Assembly: GCA_965223425.1 (NCBI GenBank)
Contig: OZ245003.1
Location: 1,152,001-1,216,000 of the forward strand
Direction: 5' to 3'
DNA: 64,000 nucleotides
Origin: Nitrosopumilus sp.
Lineage (GTDB): Archaea; Thermoproteota; Nitrososphaeria; Nitrososphaerales; Nitrosopumilaceae
Shown: piece by piece, positions 6,401-52,235 of the stretch
How the letters are laid out: the number at the start of each line of letters is the position of its first letter
Numbering within the stretch: position 1 is the stretch's first letter
Made by a program: the position numbers and the translations under genes
Notes under the pieces: generated by a model
What the model was told of the DNA's origin: nothing
The model's database searches: none
The model's input: the letters and a program-made list of their open reading frames with translations, nothing else

Positions 6401-6559
6401 TTTTACGATTAATCCTTCATTTTTGGATAATTGATTTAATAAAAATCATACATTTCATGCCCAGATTTACATGCTCTTCAAAGAATTAACCTCTTTATGC
6501 TGTTTAGTATGCGGGGTCTGTCCAAATTATTGCAAGCTAGAGACATGATAAATTTTATC

Positions 6560-6677
6560 GGCTCTGGCCACTTTTGGTGATCTAGGTAACTAACTGCCCA
6601 AAAGTGAGCAACATCAGATCCCAAACAACCCTGCTATTTGATTCTGGTGATCTGGATTCCCTAAATTGACTAGAGCC
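6560..6677. mobile_element. Putative ~118-bp MITE
   Basis: Left end GGCTCTGGCCACTTTTGG versus reverse complement of the right end GGCTCTAGTCAATTTAGG; the ends resemble the 47-bp elements at 29214 and 57336. No TSD seen. Confidence 0.5.
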
Positions 6678-6873
6678 AAGAATCATTCCAGAGAGTAATT
6701 TTTTCCAAAACCAGCCATGCCAACTATTTGGAGTATTGCGTTCATCTAAGTAATCTTATGTGCCCCGATCAAGGAAATCAGATGATAAGAGTGGTTCTGG
6801 TTCAGAAAACAGAGCCGGTACTGCAAGGATCAGAAATGCAAACAAACACACAACCCCAGATCCGAGGATATGC

Positions 6874-7913
6874 ATGTCAGCTGTCTTTGTCGGCCTGGAT
6901 GTCCACAAGAAGACCATCCAGATGTCAGTCATGGATGAAAACGGCGAGGAACTGCTCAACAAAGAGATAGCAAACACAGCCGAAGACATCAGGTACAACA
7001 TAGGCTGTTTGCACAAGGACTCTAAGCTTGTGATGGAATCCTCGTCTGTTGGAAGGCGCCGTTCTTTCAGACAAGAGACGAGCTAAGCATGGACGTGTCG
7101 CTGTCAAACCCGTACACCACCAAGCTCATAGCAGAGTCCAAAAAGAATACTGACAAGGTGGATGCCAGAATTCTGGCAGACATGCACAGGGGAGGATACA
7201 TAGTATCGTGCCACGTACCCACGTTGCAGAACATGAACAACAGGGACCTGGTGAATTACCGGCACAACCTGGTACGCCACAGGACAGGACTGAAGAACTC
7301 CATACACGGCATACTGCTGCAGAGATCGATTCGGCCTGACGGCAAGCCGTTTTGCGGGCCATGGATTGCGCAGGTTCGAAAGATAAGCGACTATAGGATA
7401 GACTCGTACCTGGACACGATAAACAGCATAAACGACAAGATACTCCAGTCAGATGCAAGGGTGCGCCAGGCAGCAAAGGAGAACGAGGATGCAACTCTGC
7501 TGCAGACCGTTCCGGGTGTCGGGGCATACTCTGCACTGGTCATTGCATGTACAATAGACGGCATAGGAAGGTTCGTCAACTCGCACAAGCTGTGCTCTTA
7601 TGTCGGCGTTGTTCCGTCTGTGAGATCCTCCGGCGAGTCCGTGCACTATGGACACATAACGCACCATGGAAGCAGCATATGCAGGTGGGTTCTGACAGAG
7701 TGCGTCTTGTCGCATGTAAGGTATGCGCCAGAGTCTGACATTTCGATATTCTACAAGAGGCTTGCAAAGAGGAGGGGCAAGGGACGTGCATCAGTGGCTG
7801 CTGCCTCAAAGCTGCTGCGAGTCATTTACCGTATGCTCAAGGAGAGAAGGGCGTTTGTTACAAATTACAGTCAGGATGCCAATTGCGATGAACTCGTTGA
7901 GGGACAGACCTAG
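6874..7913 (+). pseudogene. IS110-family (DEDD) transposase with a 1-nt frameshift at ~7050
   Basis: VGLDVHK, VMESS, NTDKVDA, TVPGVG and SYVGVVPSVRSSG motifs. A -1 shift at GTT/GGA restores ESSSV-WKAPFFQTRDELSMDVSLSNP. Confidence 0.9.
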
Positions 7914-8120
7914 TAGTCTGTATGCCTCGCCTTGTAATTGCATTATACCCTGATAAAAGAATGGAGAATGATACTGAGGGATTGCCTCTGTGATTGCCTC
8001 GGATGGATAACTGTTCGCCTCTTTGTTGTCTTGGGCCTTTGCGGTCTGGAAATAATCCTAGCTTGTGCCGTACCTGTCAGGATGAAAAATGTTGGGAATT
8101 CTTATAAGGATGGCACATGG

Positions 8121-8200
8121 ATATGAGTTCACCTACTCTGCGTAAACAACACAAATTCCGTAAAATTCGCGCCTATTTGTAAGGGGACGTGAACTCGTAC
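8121..8200. mobile_element. 80-bp MITE-like unit forming the right end of the composite
   Basis: ATATGAGTTCAC versus reverse complement of the right end GTACGAGTTCAC (10/12 match); repeated at 52072-52151. Confidence 0.55.
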
Positions 8201-8248
8201 TCATCTAACTAGAGAATCTTTATTACAGATGTATTGTAATCCGTCTTA

Positions 8249-8350
8249 TTGTCAAAAGAGATCAAATGCCCGTATTGTAATTCTATATTTGACAACAGTC
8301 CTGACTATAACAGGCACATTGACAAAGTTCACAACAACTCTCTGACTTGA
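8249..8350 (+). CDS. Small C2H2 zinc-finger protein (33 aa, below the ORF-track cutoff)
   Basis: Hand translation MSKEIKCPYCNSIFDNSPDYNRHIDKVHNNSLT gives CxxC-x12-H-x4-H. Confidence 0.7.
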   Translation: MSKEIKCPYCNSIFDNSPDYNRHIDKVHNNSLT

Positions 8351-8511
8351 GATCCATGCTTGTAATTTTTTCAGAAGTTTTCTCTCTGAAATTTTATCTT
8401 TCTGACACTCTCTCTGAAATTAATCCGATTGAATTTGATTTGAGGTGCTTCGTCTCTTATGCTGTCTGATTTCCCTTTCTTTGTATTCACATATAGTGTT
8501 ACCAGAACCAC

Positions 8512-34167: not shown

Positions 34168-35690
34168 AGACTTTATGCATAATTGAATCATAAAAATTTT
34201 TCCGAAAGATTTAGATCCATTTTGATCGCCGCAACAGGTAATGGAATCTTCAGAACAGACTATACGCAGGCTGCAAAGGGAGCTCAAGCAAAAGGACACA
34301 GCAATCAGGCAAAAGGACACAGCAATCAGGCAAAAGGACACAGCAATCAGGCAAAAGGACACAGCAATCAAGCAGAACAACAGAGCAATCAAGCAGAACA
34401 ACAGAGCAATCAAGCAAAAGGACGCAGCAATCAGCAGGCGCGAGAAGACGATTGGCCTGCTGCGCGAGCAGCTGCTGCGCGAGGACAGCCTGTGGGCCGT
34501 TACAGATGCAGGCCGCTCTGATACGGACACGTCGCTGCTGCACATCAGGGAGGTGATCCACGGCATACTGCACAACAGCGCAAAGCTTGCGGGAATTACC
34601 TCGTATGACCTTGACCAGTTTGACTACATCTGCAATGACTTTGTGGCAGAGTCAAAGAGGCACAACAAAGACGCGCCGCTCTTTTCAGAGGACGGGACAC
34701 CGGATCCCGGAAACCGCTGCCTGCTTGACCGCAGGTCCGTCCTGCTGCTTGCGCTGTTCCGCAAGCGCTCAAACGTGACGCAGGATGCCCTGGGTGTGCT
34801 GTTTGATGTTGACCAGTCCACCGTGTGCAGGTACCTCCGGTTCGCAGATTCCGTGCTGGCAGGGATCCTGCCTACTGCAGACAGGATGACCCGTCTGGTA
34901 AAAAAGGCCGAGACATCAGAGCAGCTAGAGCAGCTAATGCCGGACAGAACCATCATAATTGACGGCACCGAGGTGGTGCCAAGGCAGCGTCCGCAGGACA
35001 AGGATAAAAGAAAAAACACGTACTCTGGCAAAAAGAAGCGCTTTACGATTAACACCACCATAACAACAAACAAGGCAGGCCTGATACTTGCAGCAGGCAG
35101 GTCCTTTGAGGGCGGGACGCACGACCTTACCATGATAAGAGAGGATCCGATAGACTTTGGCAGGTGGTCTGAATCCATGTACAAAAAGGACACTCCGGAA
35201 AAGGACAGGATACGGTGCTTGCAGACAAGGGGTACCAGGGATGCCAATCACTACACGGGAATAGCACTTGAGATGCCGGAAAAAAAGAGGCCACGAGCGG
35301 AGCTGACGCAGCAACAAAAGGACTCGAACAAAAGGATCAGCGCCAAGAGGGTAAAGGTGGAGCACGCCATCGGAAGAATAAAGCAGTGGGCGAGGATGAC
35401 AGACCCGTATGACGGCACGGTAGAGGAGTTTCACGAGGAGCTGGTTGTGTGTACCGGCCTTGCGAACTTTCAACTGCTGTGGGATGCAAAGAAAAAGCGG
35501 CCGTCACTTGGTTATTGACGGCACAGCACAGGGTGCATGAGGCACTGCAAGAGTGCGCACGGATTTCTAATTTCTGCGAATTTACAATGATCTTTTGCAT
35601 CAAAATTAAATAATTTCCTGGACTGGCTTTGTGTGTCTTGGTAGTGTGTGCTGCAGAAAAAATTTGACGGGTCAATTATGCATAAAGTCT
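34168..35690 (+). mobile_element. IS5-family (ISL2/DDE_Tnp_4-type) element with 3-bp TSD
   Basis: 19-bp TIR AGACTTTATGCATAATTGA and ACG duplicated. Transposase ORF 34241-35518 has IIDGTE, YSGKKK, HDL and RVKVEHAIGRIK motifs. Confidence 0.9.
34285..34440 (+). repeat. 21-bp coding tandem repeats (KDTAIRQ / NNRAIKQ heptads, about 7 units)
   Basis: GCAAAAGGACACAGCAATCAG and variants are repeated in the transposase N-terminus. Confidence 0.85.
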
Positions 35691-36125
35691 ACGGTAACTC
35701 CTGTGTCTTCATGACATTATCACGTGAATCAAGTTCTGATCCAAATCTCCTCTTCACTACAGAAAGTATTGTTTCAGTCTTGTTTCTCTGAGAGTAAATG
35801 ATTACATCAAATTCCCCTCTCATCTGTTTTCTGTACTTTCCTTTGGTTGAACCGACTGTATTTTCTCCTCTTACTGGAATAATCATTGAGAGAATATTCT
35901 TGTCTCTGATTCTCTTGTGAACTGATTCTGCATCATACCCTCTGTCTAACACTGTACTCATTGAAGTCACATCAAGCATTTGTGAGAATAATTTTGGAAA
36001 ATGTTTGATGTCGTGGGATGTGGGATGATGCTGTATTACAACTGCACAGATCAGCTGCGATTCCATGTCAGAACCTGCTGACGTTTTTGTAAATGCATGC
36101 CTGAGACTGCATCTGTAAGAATAGT

Positions 36126-48504: not shown

Positions 48505-49374
48505 ATGAAATTGGCGATTTTTGCCCACTGTGCCATAGATACAATTACTATCAACGATAGTAATTATGAGCAAATTGGCGGTGCTGCCTGCTATTGTGGA
48601 ATAACTGCAAGGCAGTTCAAGTTTGATGTGGATTTGTTTACAAAATTTGGCCCTGACTTTCCCAGGCAATATCTTGTTGAAAACAAAATAAATCTTATAA
48701 ATTCCGAGTCAGACAAAAAGACCACCAAATTTGCAATTTCTATCGCCGGTTCGGACAGAACTTTAAAACTTGAAAACCAATGTGAAGAAATAGCCTACTC
48801 TGATGCTGATGCTGATGGACACATTGTGAGTCCGATATATCATGAAATTTCTAGCGATACTTTTAAAAAAATTAAAGGCAATTCCAATTTTCTTTTTGTT
48901 GACCCTCAGGGTTTTTTGAGACAGCAGGACTCGCAAAATAATGTCGTTCTGGAAAAAACTGATGTTGATCTGGCAAATGTAAATGCGATAAAAATCAACC
49001 CTGAAGAATCCCAGCAAATTGTTAGTGGCTCCCATGATGAAATGATGCTGGCATTGCAAAAAAAAGGCGCGGAATACGTGCTACTTACAGATAAAACCGA
49101 TGTCTCCCTTTTGGTAAAAGATAAAGTCTATTCTATTGCTCTTCCAAACAAACAAATTCATGATACTACCGGAATTGGTGATATTTTCTGCTCAGCATTC
49201 TGCTGCACCATGCTAAAAGAAAAAGACTTTTTGTGGGCACTTTGTTTTGCAGGAGGAGCTGCCCAGGCTGCACTTGACTCAAAAAATGTGGGCCTGCAAA
49301 AAATCCCCAAAAAAGGCGCCATTCAGACCAATGCCTCTTATTTTTACAATCTGGTAAAATTCAGGGATTTGTAG
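48505..49374 (+). CDS. PfkB-family carbohydrate kinase
   Basis: GGAACY, DPQGFLR and DTTGIGDIF motifs. Confidence 0.9.
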   Translation: MKLAIFAHCAIDTITINDSNYEQIGGAACYCGITARQFKFDVDLFTKFGPDFPRQYLVENKINLINSESDKKTTKFAISIAGSDRTLKLENQCEEIAYSDADADGHIVSPIYHEISSDTFKKIKGNSNFLFVDPQGFLRQQDSQNNVVLEKTDVDLANVNAIKINPEESQQIVSGSHDEMMLALQKKGAEYVLLTDKTDVSLLVKDKVYSIALPNKQIHDTTGIGDIFCSAFCCTMLKEKDFLWALCFAGGAAQAALDSKNVGLQKIPKKGAIQTNASYFYNLVKFRDL

Positions 49375-49556: not shown

Positions 49557-52151
49557 GTAATCTTATGTGCCCCGATCAAGGAAATCAGATGATAAGAGTG
49601 GTTCTGGTTCAAAAAACAGAGCCGTAGTTAGCACATTAAATAATTGAACATTTTCACAGGCAGGATCTCCTTTCTGGCAAACAGCTTGCGTACTGACTGC
49701 TCCATCTCATCTAGCGTGCCAAACACTTTTGCAGACAGTACCCGTTTTATCACCCTCCACTGCATCTCAATGGGATTAAGCTCCGGCGTGTACGGCAGCA
49801 GGTACTCCAGAACTATCTCGCCGTTGTATCTTTCCAGAAACTCCTTTACCTTTTTGGATTTGTGATATGACGCATTGTCTACAAACAGCAGCACCTTGCC
49901 GAATCTTTTGTGAACCCGTTCCAAAAAGTTGCAAAAGCTGTCGCTGTTTGACTTTTCATAAAACATAAAGTAAAATGCGTTTGCCGCCAAAGCTCCAAAG
50001 ATGTATCTTCTTTCGCGTGACAAAACAGAGGGGGATGTGGCGCGCTTGCCGCGCCTTCTCCACCCGTAGCCGGGCCTGTTTGATGCCTTTTGAATCGAGG
50101 ATGCATCGCCGGCCAGTACGGTGTATCCCTGCGCCGACTTTTCTGCAACGAGTTTTTTTGCCCGCTCCTGAAACTCTTTTTGCTTTCTTTTTGAGGCTGA
50201 TCTTGGGTTTTTTGGACGCGCCTTGCTCCACGAAAAGCCCATCTCCCTGACCAGCTGCAGCGCGCCTGTCTTGCTGTACTGCACGCCGAACTTTTTCTTG
50301 ATGTGCAGCCTTACCAGGTTGGAATCCCACAGGCTGCTCTCAAAGCCGCATGATTCCGGCCCCGCATCCAGGTCTGCTGCAAGCTGTCTTGCCTGCGGCC
50401 CGCCTATCAGGTGCTTTCGTCCCCTGCCGCTGCGCTCGAACCTTGCGCGTATTCCCTCGTCCTGTGCGCGGTTGAGCCATGCAGATATGGTGGACTTGGG
50501 CCTTCCCAGCATCCTTCCAATCCTGTCTAGCGGCACGCCGTCCTTGCGCTGCATGTACGCAAGCAGCCTGTCGCGCCTTCTGGGATCGGTCTCTTTTTTG
50601 TATGCCCTTTTGAGGTCTGCAACGCTGGTGTTTGGCAGAAATTTTGCCCCCCTTGCAACCTGTCTCTTTTTTTGTTTGTACATGCAGTGTGTGCGGTATG
50701 GCCTGTCTTGGATCTTTTGGCCAAAAATAATTGTCAAAATGGTTCAGGTTTTTTATGTACTTACTACGGTACTGCAAAGATCAGAAATGCAAACAAACAC
50801 ACAACCCCAGATCCGAGGATATGCATGTCAGCTGTCTTTGTCGGCCTGGATGTCCACAAGAAGACCATCCAGATGTCAGTCATGGATGAAAACGGCGAGG
50901 AACTGCTCAACAAAGAGATAGCAAACACAGCCGAAGACATCAGGTACAACATAGGCTGTTTGCACAAGGACTCTAAGCTTGTGATGGAGTCCTCGTCTGT
51001 TGGAAGGCGCCGTTCTTTCAGACAAGAGACGAGCTAAGCATGGACGTGTCGCTATCAAACCCGTACACCACCAAGCTCATAGCAGAGTCCAAAAAGAATA
51101 CTGACAAGGTGGATGCCAGAATTCTGGCAGACATGCACAGGGGAGGATACATAGTATCGTGCCACGTACCCACGTTGCAGAACATGAACAACAGGGACCT
51201 GGTGAATTACCGGCACAACCTGGTACGCCACAGGACAGGACTGAAGAACTCCATACACGGCATACTGCTGCAGAGATCGATTCGGCCTGACGGCAAGCCG
51301 TTTTGCGGGCCATGGATTGCGCAGGTTCGAAAGATAAGCGACTATAGGATAGACTCGTACCTGGACACGATAAACAGCATAAACGACAAGATACTCCAGT
51401 CAGATGCAAGGGTGCGCCAGGCAGCAAAGGAGAACGAGGATGCAACTCTGCTGCAGACCGTTCCGGGTGTCGGGGCATACTCTGCACTGGTCATTGCATG
51501 TACAATAGACGGCATAGGAAGGTTCGTCAACTCGCACAAGCTGTGCTCTTATGTCGGCGTTGTTCCGTCTGTGAGATCCTCCGGCGAGTCCGTGCACTAT
51601 GGACACATAACGCACCATGGAAGCAGCATATGCAGGTGGGTTCTGACAGAGTGCGTCTTGTCGCATGTAAGGTATGCGCCAGAGTCTGACATTTCGATAT
51701 TCTACAAGAGGCTTGCAAAGAGGAGGGGCAAGGGACGTGCATCAGTGGCTGCTGCCTCAAAGCTGCTGCGAGTCATTTACCGGATGCTCAAGGAGAGAAG
51801 GGCGTTTGTTACAAATTACAGTCAGGATGCCAATTGCGATGAACTCGTTGAGGGACAGACCTAGTAGTCTGTATGCCTCGCCTTGTAATTGCATTATACC
51901 CTGATAAAAGAATGGAGAATGATACTGAGGGATTGCCTCTGTGATTGCCTCGGATGGATAACTGTTCGCCTCTTTGTTGTCTTGGGCCTTTGCGGTCTGG
52001 AAATAATCCTAGCTTGTGCCGTACCTGTCAGGATGAAAAATGTTGGGAATTCTTATAAGGATGGCACATGGATATGAGTTCACCTACTCTGCGTAAACAA
52101 CACAAATTCCGTAAAATTCGCGCCTATTTGTAAGGGGCCGTGAACTCGTAC
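49557..52151 (+). mobile_element. IS66-like-ended composite carrying the frameshifted IS110, copy 2 (with nested IS630)
   Basis: TSD CCTACAAA at 49549-49556 and 52152-52159. IS110 pseudogene at 50825-51864 with the same frameshift as copy 1. Confidence 0.88.
49625..50766 (-). mobile_element. IS630-family element, copy 2 (intact ORF 49628-50737)
   Basis: TIRs present; GDAS/DNA/NPIE triad; CG duplicated relative to the empty site at 6811-6824. Confidence 0.95.
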
Positions 52152-52235
52152 CCTACAAAAGAAGGGGAAGTATGTTGTTCGATCTTGCATCCGAAACTTT
52201 GCAGAAGCTTCTGCAAGGTGTGGCTACTCATTCGA

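What the first reader, a model, noticed from the sequence alone, without database searches (positions are those of the whole stretch)
6742..8208. A frameshifted IS110 transposed twice as cargo inside IS66-like ends
Seen: two near-identical 1.45-kb units (6750-8200, and 49557-52151 minus its nested IS630) share the ends GTAATC...GTGAACTCGTAC. Each is flanked by a different perfect 8-bp duplication (TCATCTAA; CCTACAAA), and both carry the same IS110 frameshift. Removing copy 2 plus one 8-mer restores a gene in frame. Known: IS110 recombinases insert by RNA-guided recombination at a short shared core and do not make site-variable 8-bp TSDs, whereas IS66-family DDE elements have GTA-type ends and 8-bp TSDs. 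Inference: an 80-bp MITE (8121-8200) plus a degenerate left end captured the IS110, which now moves by a different transposase in trans.
Basis: partly seen in the sequence, partly recalled or inferred. Interest (0 to 1): 0.75.

Follow-up and report, generated by a model that had tools for sequence, protein, structure and literature searches.

The report
RNA-guided IS1111-like element inside MITE ends
The two 1.45-kb units are an IS110/IS1111-type insertion sequence that aimed itself, by its own guide RNA, into the tip of an 80-bp miniature transposon, so the 8-bp duplications belong to the miniature transposon and the case is a new example of a known habit.

Summary
The sequence facts hold. 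Two 99.6%-alike units lie at 6750-8200 and 49557-52151. Each has a different perfect 8-bp duplication, and both share one 1-nt deletion in the IS110 gene.

The "cargo" reading is not the best one.
- The genome holds an autonomous 1526-bp IS66-family element (TIR GTATGAGTTCAC, 8-bp TSD) and a solo 80-bp MITE with the same ends and its own 8-bp TSD.
- Each unit is that MITE with a 1369-bp IS1111-like element ("ISa") inserted after base 3 of one TIR, always as G-TA-[ATC...GGA]-TA-YGAGTTCAC.
- One MITE carries an ISa in each of its two TIRs. One ISa sits at a look-alike site with no MITE and no TSD.
- ISa's 3' region has a 9-nt guide complementary to the TIR, in an internal loop shared with three related elements. 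In three of the four elements the right-side guide matches that element's own right flank.
- A second IS1111-like paralogue sits in the TIR of a different DDE element.
- Intact ISa genes exist (copies A and B), so the frameshifted copies can be moved in trans.

This parallels IS4321/IS5075 in Tn21 ends. Movement of the composite by the IS66 transposase is not excluded (about 8%). Interest is moderate.

The parts
6742..6749 (.). Left copy of the 8-bp target duplication (TCATCTAA) of MITE copy 1
6750..6752 (+). First three bases (G + TA) of the MITE left TIR GTATGAGTTCAC. TA is the recombination core.
   Evidence: Compared with the solo MITE
6753..8121 (+). ISa copy 1: IS1111-like element, 1369 bp, ATCTT-ATGTGCC...GGCACAT-GGA
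   Evidence: Boundaries from 6 near-identical copies. Pfam DEDD_Tnp_IS110 + Transposase_20.
6758..6764 (+). Left subterminal inverted repeat ATGTGCC. It lies 7 bases from the outer TA.
6874..7086 (+). 5' part of the recombinase gene. It runs into a stop because one C is missing after 7049.
   Evidence: read laying lists 'put in behind 7049: C'.
7050..7913 (+). 3' part of the recombinase gene in the other frame (274-aa ORF from 7089)
7889..7897 (+). Predicted right-target (T) guide UGAACUCGU. It is complementary to A-CGAGTTCA of the TIR and lies inside the end of the gene.
7898..7929 (+). Hairpin (GAGG...CCUC) that closes the guide loop
7930..7938 (+). Predicted left (B) guide CCUUG-UA-AU. It has the same sense as G + core + the first two bases of the element.
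8003..8009 (+). AUGGAUA, the same sense as the right end plus core. Conserved in three of the four related elements (G015 lacks one G). Candidate donor guide.
8102..8107 (+). TTATAA, 14 bases from the right tip. An A/T-rich TATAA-like box lies near this place in all four elements. Possible archaeal TATA box (inference).
8112..8118 (+). Right subterminal inverted repeat GGCACAT, followed by the 3-base extension GGA
8122..8123 (+). Second copy of the TA core
8124..8200 (+). Rest of the 80-bp MITE (TGAGTTCACC...GTGAACTCGTAC)
   Evidence: 100% identical to the solo MITE over 79 bases
8201..8208 (.). Right copy of the 8-bp duplication TCATCTAA
49549..49556 (.). Left 8-bp duplication CCTACAAA of MITE copy 2
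49557..49559 (+). G + TA tip of the MITE, copy 2
49560..49624 (+). ISa copy 2, left part
49625..50766 (-). Nested IS630-type element (369-aa ORF, DDE_3 + HTH domains)
50767..52072 (+). ISa copy 2, right part, with the same missing C (51000/51001)
52073..52151 (+). TA core plus the rest of the MITE, copy 2 (one A>C change)
52152..52159 (.). Right 8-bp duplication CCTACAAA

Best explanation
Three layers of mobile DNA are stacked.

(1) A single-ORF IS66-family DDE element (1526 bp) and its 80-bp MITE transpose and make 8-bp duplications. These are the site-variable TSDs.

(2) ISa, a 1369-bp IS1111-group member of the IS110 family, then inserted by site-specific, RNA-guided recombination into the MITE's terminal inverted repeat.
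- It lands between base 3 and base 4 (G-TA | YGAGTTCAC) and repeats the TA core.
- Its guide RNA is encoded at the 3' end of the element.
- A second segment has the sense of G-TA plus the first two bases of the element.

(3) An IS630-type element later landed in copy 2.

Copies 1 and 2 share the frameshift by descent. Their ends and guide region are intact. The frameshifted copy was most likely moved into a second, already resident MITE by the intact recombinase of copies A/B acting in trans.

Shown: the anatomy, the junctions, the guide complementarity and its change from element to element, and the intact paralogues.

Inferred: that the RNA is made, the trans-complementation, and the order of events.
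For: Junction identity:
- All 5 MITE-associated ISa copies have the same junction G-TA-[ATC...GGA]-TA-YGAGTTCAC. These are copies 1, 2 and C in the left TIR, and A and B in the right and left TIR of one and the same MITE, whose outer TSD is AAAACTAT.
- Copy D lies at GTACGTGTTCAG, a 10/12 look-alike made of flank plus the end of an unrelated IS. It has no MITE and no TSD.

The MITE and its parent:
- The solo MITE has its own TSD AATAAATT.
- The parent element has Pfam DDE_Tnp_IS66 1.1e-27, TIR GTATGAGTTCACC and TSD GATGATTG.

ISa features:
- Pfam DEDD_Tnp_IS110 1.3e-23 and Transposase_20 4.6e-18.
- A 208-nt non-coding region downstream of the gene.
- 7-bp subterminal repeats with 7- and 3-base extensions.

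Guides:
- In the alignment of four related elements, a shared scaffold holds two variable segments.
- T guide against its own right flank: ISa 9+0, 8+1 and 8+0 of 9; ISb 8+1 and 9+0; G015 7+1; G018 2+3 (fails). Non-cognate pairs reach at most 6.
- B guide against its own left junction: 6-8 of 9, against 3-6 for non-cognate pairs.
- RNAalifold puts both segments on the two sides of one internal loop. 7 of 18 pairs have compensatory changes.

Other support:
- ISb (50% identical protein) sits inside the TIR of a 1527-bp DDE_Tnp_4 element at 3 of 3 places, at either end.
- Copies A and B have intact 346-aa genes.
- G-TA-YGAGTTCAC occurs 13 times in the genome, only in these TIRs, and 5 sites are occupied. 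None of 10 further TAYGAGTTCA sites outside TIRs is occupied.

Literature:
- IS1111 members have the long non-coding region downstream, subterminal repeats with 7- and 3-bp extensions, and a guide whose top-strand match comes first (PMC11187229: abstract, passages, section 9).
Against: - All 5 occupied sites are in MITEs. 4 of 5 MITE left TIRs are occupied, but 0 of 3 IS66 left TIRs that are identical over the first 14 bases. The difference is not significant (hypergeometric 5/70 = 0.07, my arithmetic), but it is the direction expected if the composite itself had multiplied.
- Only 1 of 5 MITE copies is free of ISa.
- The left guide matches only G + TA of the target, because the bases further left vary from site to site.
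- The T guide of G018 does not match its right flank.
- Single-sequence folding of the non-coding region is no better than shuffles (z 0.02).
- No Rfam family matches.
- No pre-insertion MITE at either window site was seen.
- The same 1-nt deletion also occurs in two diverged copies, so the deletion could recur or spread by gene conversion.
Confidence: 0.84

Rival explanations
1. One reading: after one ISa insertion into a MITE, the whole composite (GTA + ISa + MITE) was moved as cargo by the IS66-family transposase, which made a new 8-bp duplication at each site.
For: - Copies 1 and 2 are sisters. They share the deletion, T at element position 399 and C at 323. Both have ISa in the same (left) TIR.
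- 4 of 5 MITE left TIRs are occupied against 0 of 3 identical IS66 left TIRs.
- An intact IS66 transposase gene is present.
- The ISa left end has GTGCCCC where the IS66 TIR has CTGCCCC, two bases out of register.
Against: - Beyond GTA the composite's left end shares about 5 of the first 14 bases with the TIR (my count), so there is no recognisable second end for a DDE transposase.
- The model cannot explain ISa in both TIRs of one MITE, or copy D without MITE and TSD.
- The element carries its own guide to the TIR.
- The MITE parts are too alike to test co-descent: 1 difference among the 4 MITE parts aligned, and the solo copy is identical to copy 1's over 79 bases.
Confidence: 0.08
2. Copies 1 and 2 were two independent insertions of intact ISa. 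The shared frameshift and linked bases spread afterwards by gene conversion between copies, or the deletion recurred.
For: - The same missing C is also seen in two diverged copies, deg1a (93.7% alike) and p522 (87.8% alike).
- Contigs of run X6 carry the flanks of the copy-2 site but show only the form with the C.
Against: - Copies 1 and 2 also share T399, which is found in none of the other 5 near-identical copies. This fits simple descent.
- Contigs drop variants, so X6 is weak evidence.
Confidence: 0.07
3. Artefact: the repeats were collapsed or mis-polished in assembly, so the shared frameshift or the junctions are not real.
For: The genome is very rich in nested repeats.
Against: - Contigs of independent runs show both the C-less and the C-bearing form at 7049.
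- Contigs from unique flank reach 28 bases into the element at 6750-6777 in X1 and X3.
- The five junctions agree to the base.
Confidence: 0.01

Closest known systems
[quoted passage not shown]
   Same: - A DEDD recombinase element with subterminal inverted repeats and a long 3' non-coding region.
- It inserts at one fixed position and orientation inside the TIR of another transposon.
   Different: - The host here appears to be an archaeon (my inference from context; not tested).
- The target is an IS66-family element's MITE.
- The cut lies at base 3 of the TIR, so almost nothing left of the core is conserved.
- Part of the guide lies inside the recombinase gene.
IS1111-type seekRNA / bridge RNA systems (ISEc11, ISKpn4, ISPa11 in PMC11187229; IS621 in PMC11208158 and PMC11208160)
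   Same: - Two short guide segments on the two sides of an internal loop.
- The top-strand complement comes first.
- The two matches overlap at the core.
- A dinucleotide core is repeated at both junctions.
- Guides are reprogrammed naturally between relatives.
   Different: - The RNA was not observed here.
- No Rfam model matches.
- The core is TA.
- The left guide is largely unmatched at the natural sites.
Single-ORF IS66-family elements (the ISBst12 group name is recalled, not tested) and their MITEs
   Same: DDE_Tnp_IS66 domain, ends beginning GTA, 8-bp duplications, and one ORF of 476 aa in 1526 bp.
   Different: This is the host of the insertion, not the mover of the IS110, on present evidence.

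Membership tests
IS110 family, IS1111 group | DEDD (RuvC-like) N-terminal domain and Transposase_20 C-terminal domain | tested here: met
   PF01548 1.3e-23 and PF02371 4.6e-18 on the intact 346-aa protein of copy A. The window copies give the same domains in two pieces.
IS110 family, IS1111 group | Subterminal inverted repeats (7-17 bp) with 7-bp left and 3-bp right extensions | tested here: met
   - ISa has TA+ATCTT | ATGTGCC ... GGCACAT | GGA.
- The repeat changes in step on both ends in the relatives: ATGTGAA/TTCACAT in ISb, ATGTGAAT/ATTCACAT in G015.
- The criteria are taken from PMC11187229 and PMC11208160 (passages).
IS110 family, IS1111 group | Long non-coding region downstream of the recombinase gene | tested here: met
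   208 nt downstream against 121 nt upstream of the ATG at 6874
IS110 family, IS1111 group | Insertion at one sequence-defined site in one orientation, without a variable multi-base TSD of its own | tested here: met
   - 5 of 5 MITE-associated copies and copy D share the junction G-TA|...|TA-YG(A/T)GTTCA.
- Only the TA is repeated.
IS110 family, IS1111 group | Guide RNA with segments complementary to both strands of the target | tested here: inconclusive
   - The sequence and comparative signal is strong.
- The RNA itself was not observed.
- No RNA run was listed.
IS110 family, IS1111 group | Circular intermediate with joined ends | not testable with these tools
   Only contigs were on hand. 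No such joint was seen, which proves nothing.
IS66 family (parent element and its MITE) | DDE_Tnp_IS66 transposase | tested here: met
   PF03050 1.1e-27 on the 476-aa ORF of L002
IS66 family (parent element and its MITE) | TIRs beginning GTA and 8-bp target duplication | tested here: met
   - Parent: TSD GATGATTG.
- Solo MITE: AATAAATT.
- Occupied MITEs: TCATCTAA, CCTACAAA, AAAACTAT, CTTGATAT.
Composite or cargo transposon moved by the IS66 transposase | Two ends that the transposase can recognise | tested here: not met
   The left end keeps only GTA of the TIR. About 5 of the first 14 bases agree (my count).

The most novel reading that the evidence does not exclude
The composite is itself mobile. 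After ISa landed in the MITE, the IS66-family transposase still moves the 1.45-kb unit using a vestigial left end. On this reading an RNA-guided recombinase gene, even a broken one, hitch-hikes on a DDE-driven MITE and escapes its own target restriction. A milder form is that IS1111-like elements in this lineage are dedicated parasites of DDE transposon ends. Two separately programmed elements hit two different DDE families here.
Probability: 0.08. Interest if true: 0.7.

Novelty: new member of a known kind. Interest (0 to 1): 0.35.

Why it matters
- It corrects a tempting misreading. An IS110-type element flanked by variable 8-bp duplications need not make them or ride on another transposase.
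- It gives a clean natural example of guide reprogramming among related IS1111-like elements, each aimed at the terminal repeat of another transposon.
- The target sits at the very tip of the repeat, so the left guide is almost unused. That bears on how much pairing such recombinases need.
- For annotation, it shows how to separate nested mobile elements in a very IS-rich genome.

Tried and rejected
- Rfam scan of 6700-8260 at E up to 10 gave three chance-level hits and no bridge or seek RNA family.
- Single-sequence folding of the 208-nt non-coding region scored no better than shuffles (z 0.02).
- I first read AUGGAUAACUGUUCGCCU (8003-8020) as a mirror of the right junction. The paralogue ISb has nearly the same string with a different target. 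Only AUGGAUA, which is the right end plus core, may be meaningful, so I dropped the rest.
- The diverged copy deg2 has a changed T guide (UGAAGUCAU). Its right flank matches this guide poorly: 5 of 9 when aligned from the right (my count). Inconclusive.
- Right flank of deg1: a 20-bp remnant ending in a TIR-like end, with no TSD. Too decayed to use.
- Sequencing runs: no RNA holder was listed.
- Contigs of X1, X3, X5 and X6 laid on 6500-8450 showed no joint that skips 6753-8121 and no end-to-end joint. Contigs cannot show rare forms, so this says nothing either way. X6 has no cover on the copy-1 flank.
- Empty-site search in 60 genomes of the genus and 5 fetched loci found no conserved empty site for copy 2.
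- Exact scans for the 21-nt right end in metagenome contigs and genome contigs gave 0 hits each.
- Print search: searches listed no paper describing an IS110/IS1111 element in an IS66 or MITE end. I saw only titles and abstract starts, so I make no claim of absence beyond those searches.
- Supplementary files of the papers were not opened.

Full report
**Observation**

- Unit 1 is 6750-8200, between two copies of TCATCTAA.
- Unit 2 is 49557-52151, between two copies of CCTACAAA.
- Unit 2 is split by a 1142-bp IS630-type element.
- Both units lack one C in TCTGT-TGG. This breaks an IS110-type gene into a 5' piece (6874-7086) and a 274-aa 3' ORF.
- The claim that removing unit 2 restores a gene was not borne out. 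Only a 68-codon frame spans the restored site. Related genomes conserve only the gene that ends at 49374.

**More copies change the picture**

BLAST of unit 1 against the whole genome gave 26 hits. The informative ones are these.
- (a) A solo 80-bp element, GTATGAGTTCAC...GTGAACTCGTAC, at C1:2012427-2012506, between two copies of AATAAATT. It is a MITE with 12-bp inverted ends and an 8-bp duplication.
- (b) One MITE at C1:1500508-1503331 with a full IS110 unit in each of its two inverted repeats. The two units point inward. The whole is flanked by AAAACTAT.
- (c) A further interrupted composite, flanked by CTTGATAT.
- (d) Copy D, which ends ...GGA-TA-CGTGTTCAGCTA and has neither a MITE nor a duplication. 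Its right flank is a few bases of host DNA plus the end of an unrelated DDE element. Together they mimic the repeat at 10 of 12 bases.
- (e) Several decayed or truncated copies.

In all five MITE-associated copies the junctions read G-TA-[ATCTTATGTGCC...GGCACATGGA]-TA-YGAGTTCAC. The mobile IS110 unit proper (here ISa) is 6753-8121, 1369 bp, bracketed by a repeated TA.

**The DDE parent exists**

GTAYGAGTTCAC also ends a 1526-bp element.
- An intact copy lies at C1:1529633-1531158, with TSD GATGATTG.
- It has a single 476-aa ORF that matches DDE_Tnp_IS66 at 1.1e-27.

**What ISa is**

- The intact protein (346 aa, copies A and B) has DEDD_Tnp_IS110 and Transposase_20.
- The element has 7-bp subterminal inverted repeats (ATGTGCC/GGCACAT). 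Counting the TA, these have a 7-base left and a 3-base right extension.
- It has a 208-nt non-coding region downstream of the gene.

These are the marks of the IS1111 group as given in PMC11187229 (abstract and passages) and PMC11208160 (passages).

**Guide evidence**

Three relatives were compared with ISa.
- A 50%-identical paralogue in the same genome (ISb, 1314 bp).
- Two elements in other genomes of the genus (G018, G015).

The four 3' regions align on a common scaffold: GCG-[variable]-UUGRGG-loop-CCYCG-[variable]-UA-AN-UGC. Further on comes AUGGAUA (G015 lacks one G), and each ends in CACAUGGA.

*First variable segment.*
- In ISa it is UGAACUCGU (7889-7897, inside the end of the gene).
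- It is the reverse complement of A-CGAGTTCA: 9 of 9 Watson-Crick pairs with the MITE's right repeat, 8 plus one G·T with the left repeat, and 8 of 9 at copy D.
- ISb's segment pairs 8+1 and 9+0 with its own right flanks, and G015's pairs 7+1.
- G018's does not pair (2+3).
- Non-cognate combinations reach at most 6.

*Second variable segment.*
- It has the sense of left flank + TA + the first two bases of the element.
- Identities with the element's own left junction are 8 of 9 in ISb and G015, 7 in G018 and 6-7 in ISa. Non-cognate combinations give 3-6.

*Structure.*
- RNAalifold places the two segments on opposite sides of one internal loop between two stems.
- 7 of 18 pairs keep pairing through changes on both sides.

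This is the layout of a target-binding loop.
- The right guide pairs with the top strand, the left guide with the bottom strand, and they overlap at the core (PMC11208158 and PMC11208160, passages).
- The order, top-strand match first, is the one reported for IS1111 seekRNAs (PMC11187229, section 9).

The RNA itself was not observed.

**A second case in the same genome**

ISb lies at 3 of 3 places inside the inverted repeat of a 1527-bp DDE_Tnp_4 element (TCAAT-TA-TGCATAAAGTCT), at either end of that element. Both IS1111-like elements examined here (ISa and ISb) therefore aim at the ends of DDE transposons. That is the habit known for IS4321/IS5075 and Tn21 ends. I saw that citation only as a title.

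**The frameshift**

- Among the seven near-identical copies, 1 and 2 alone share the missing C and T399. They also share C323 with one truncated copy. They are sisters.
- Copies A and B are intact. Copy D has a 2-nt insertion. Copy C is interrupted.
- The ends and guide region of copies 1 and 2 are intact.

The simplest account is that a frameshifted copy was moved into another resident MITE by the intact recombinase in trans. Transposase, RNA and donor ends have been supplied from separate plasmids in experiments (PMC11187229 and PMC11208160, passages).

- All occupied sites are in MITEs: 4 of 5 MITE left repeats and 1 of 5 right repeats.
- None of 3 IS66 left repeats with the same first 14 bases is occupied.
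- Only one MITE is free of ISa.
- This skew is what composite amplification would give, but it is not significant (0.07).
- The model needs a DDE transposase to use an end that keeps only GTA.
- It cannot explain the double-hit MITE or copy D.
- The MITE parts are too uniform to test co-descent.

I keep the model at about 8%. Gene conversion, or recurrence of the deletion, is a further minor alternative, because two diverged copies show the same missing C.

**Reads**

Only contigs were available.
- They confirm that both the C-less and the C-bearing forms exist.
- They confirm that unique flank runs into the element at 6750.
- They show no excision or circle joints, and they cannot be expected to.

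**Verdict**

- This is a new member of a known kind: an IS1111-group element guided into another transposon's terminal repeat.
- The pleasing details are a target at the very tip of the repeat and natural reprogramming among relatives.
- Interest is 0.35.

Noticed in passing
G000:C1:2046227-2047578 (+), 323132-324481 (-), 2067353-2068703 (-); uninterrupted host element in window 34168-35692: A second IS1111-like element (ISb, 1314 bp, protein 50% identical) sits inside the inverted repeat TCAAT-TA-TGCATAAAGTCT of a 1527-bp DDE_Tnp_4 element, at either end. One copy lacks the second TA, and one has TAC instead of TAT.
   Followed up: partly
window 7049/7050 and 51000/51001; C1:321205-321583 and C1:338427-338946: The same single missing C (TCTGT-TGG) occurs in copies 1 and 2. 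It also occurs in two diverged copies (93.7% and 87.8% alike) that carry a further shared 1-nt deletion. This points to recurrence or gene conversion.
   Followed up: no
window 8102-8107 and the same place in ISb, L007, L008: An A/T-rich TATAA-like box (TTATAA in three of the four, TATAAA in G015) lies a few bases from the right tip of all four related elements (14 bases in ISa). It could be an archaeal TATA box that fires across the joined ends of a circle, or outward into the flank when the element is integrated. Inference only.
   Followed up: no
window 49623-49624 / 50767-50768; C1:1804991-1804994 / 1806123-1806126: The nested 1.14-kb IS630-type element in copy 2 is bracketed by a 2-base overlap (CG). 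The 1.13-kb insert in copy C is bracketed by a 4-base overlap (TACG). I had expected (from memory) a plain TA duplication for the IS630 family. Whether both inserts are the same element was not checked.
   Followed up: no
C1:319537-321583 and C1:100934-100976: Another small inverted-repeat element (AGACCTTATGCGCAATCG...CGATTACGCATAAGGTCT) is nested in decayed ISa copies. Its ends resemble the TIR of the 1527-bp DDE_Tnp_4 element, so it is probably that element's MITE.
   Followed up: no
L004 (C1:2373401-2376400): Copy D of ISa has a 2-nt AG insertion that breaks the gene. It abuts the end of an IS4/IS5-like element (DDE_Tnp_1, 3.7e-05) that is present in many copies.
   Followed up: partly
L007 minus strand, right of position 2699 (G018): The right flank of the G018 element (TA-ATCTGATACG...) does not match its predicted guide. 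It resembles the left end of an ISa-type element, so it may be a tandem or nested arrangement.
   Followed up: no
run X6, contigs on window 6748-8200: In this run the contigs carry both flanks of the copy-2 site but show only the C-bearing form, with the alleles of copies A/B at 7023, 7072 and 7148. A related strain may hold an intact ISa at that site.
   Followed up: no
G000 as a whole: The genome (2.64 Mb, 2 contigs; C2 is 123 kb with G+C 0.47 against 0.41) is crowded with nested insertion sequences. One 4-kb stretch at C1:691856 holds three different elements, each with 10 or more copies or fragments elsewhere.
   Followed up: no
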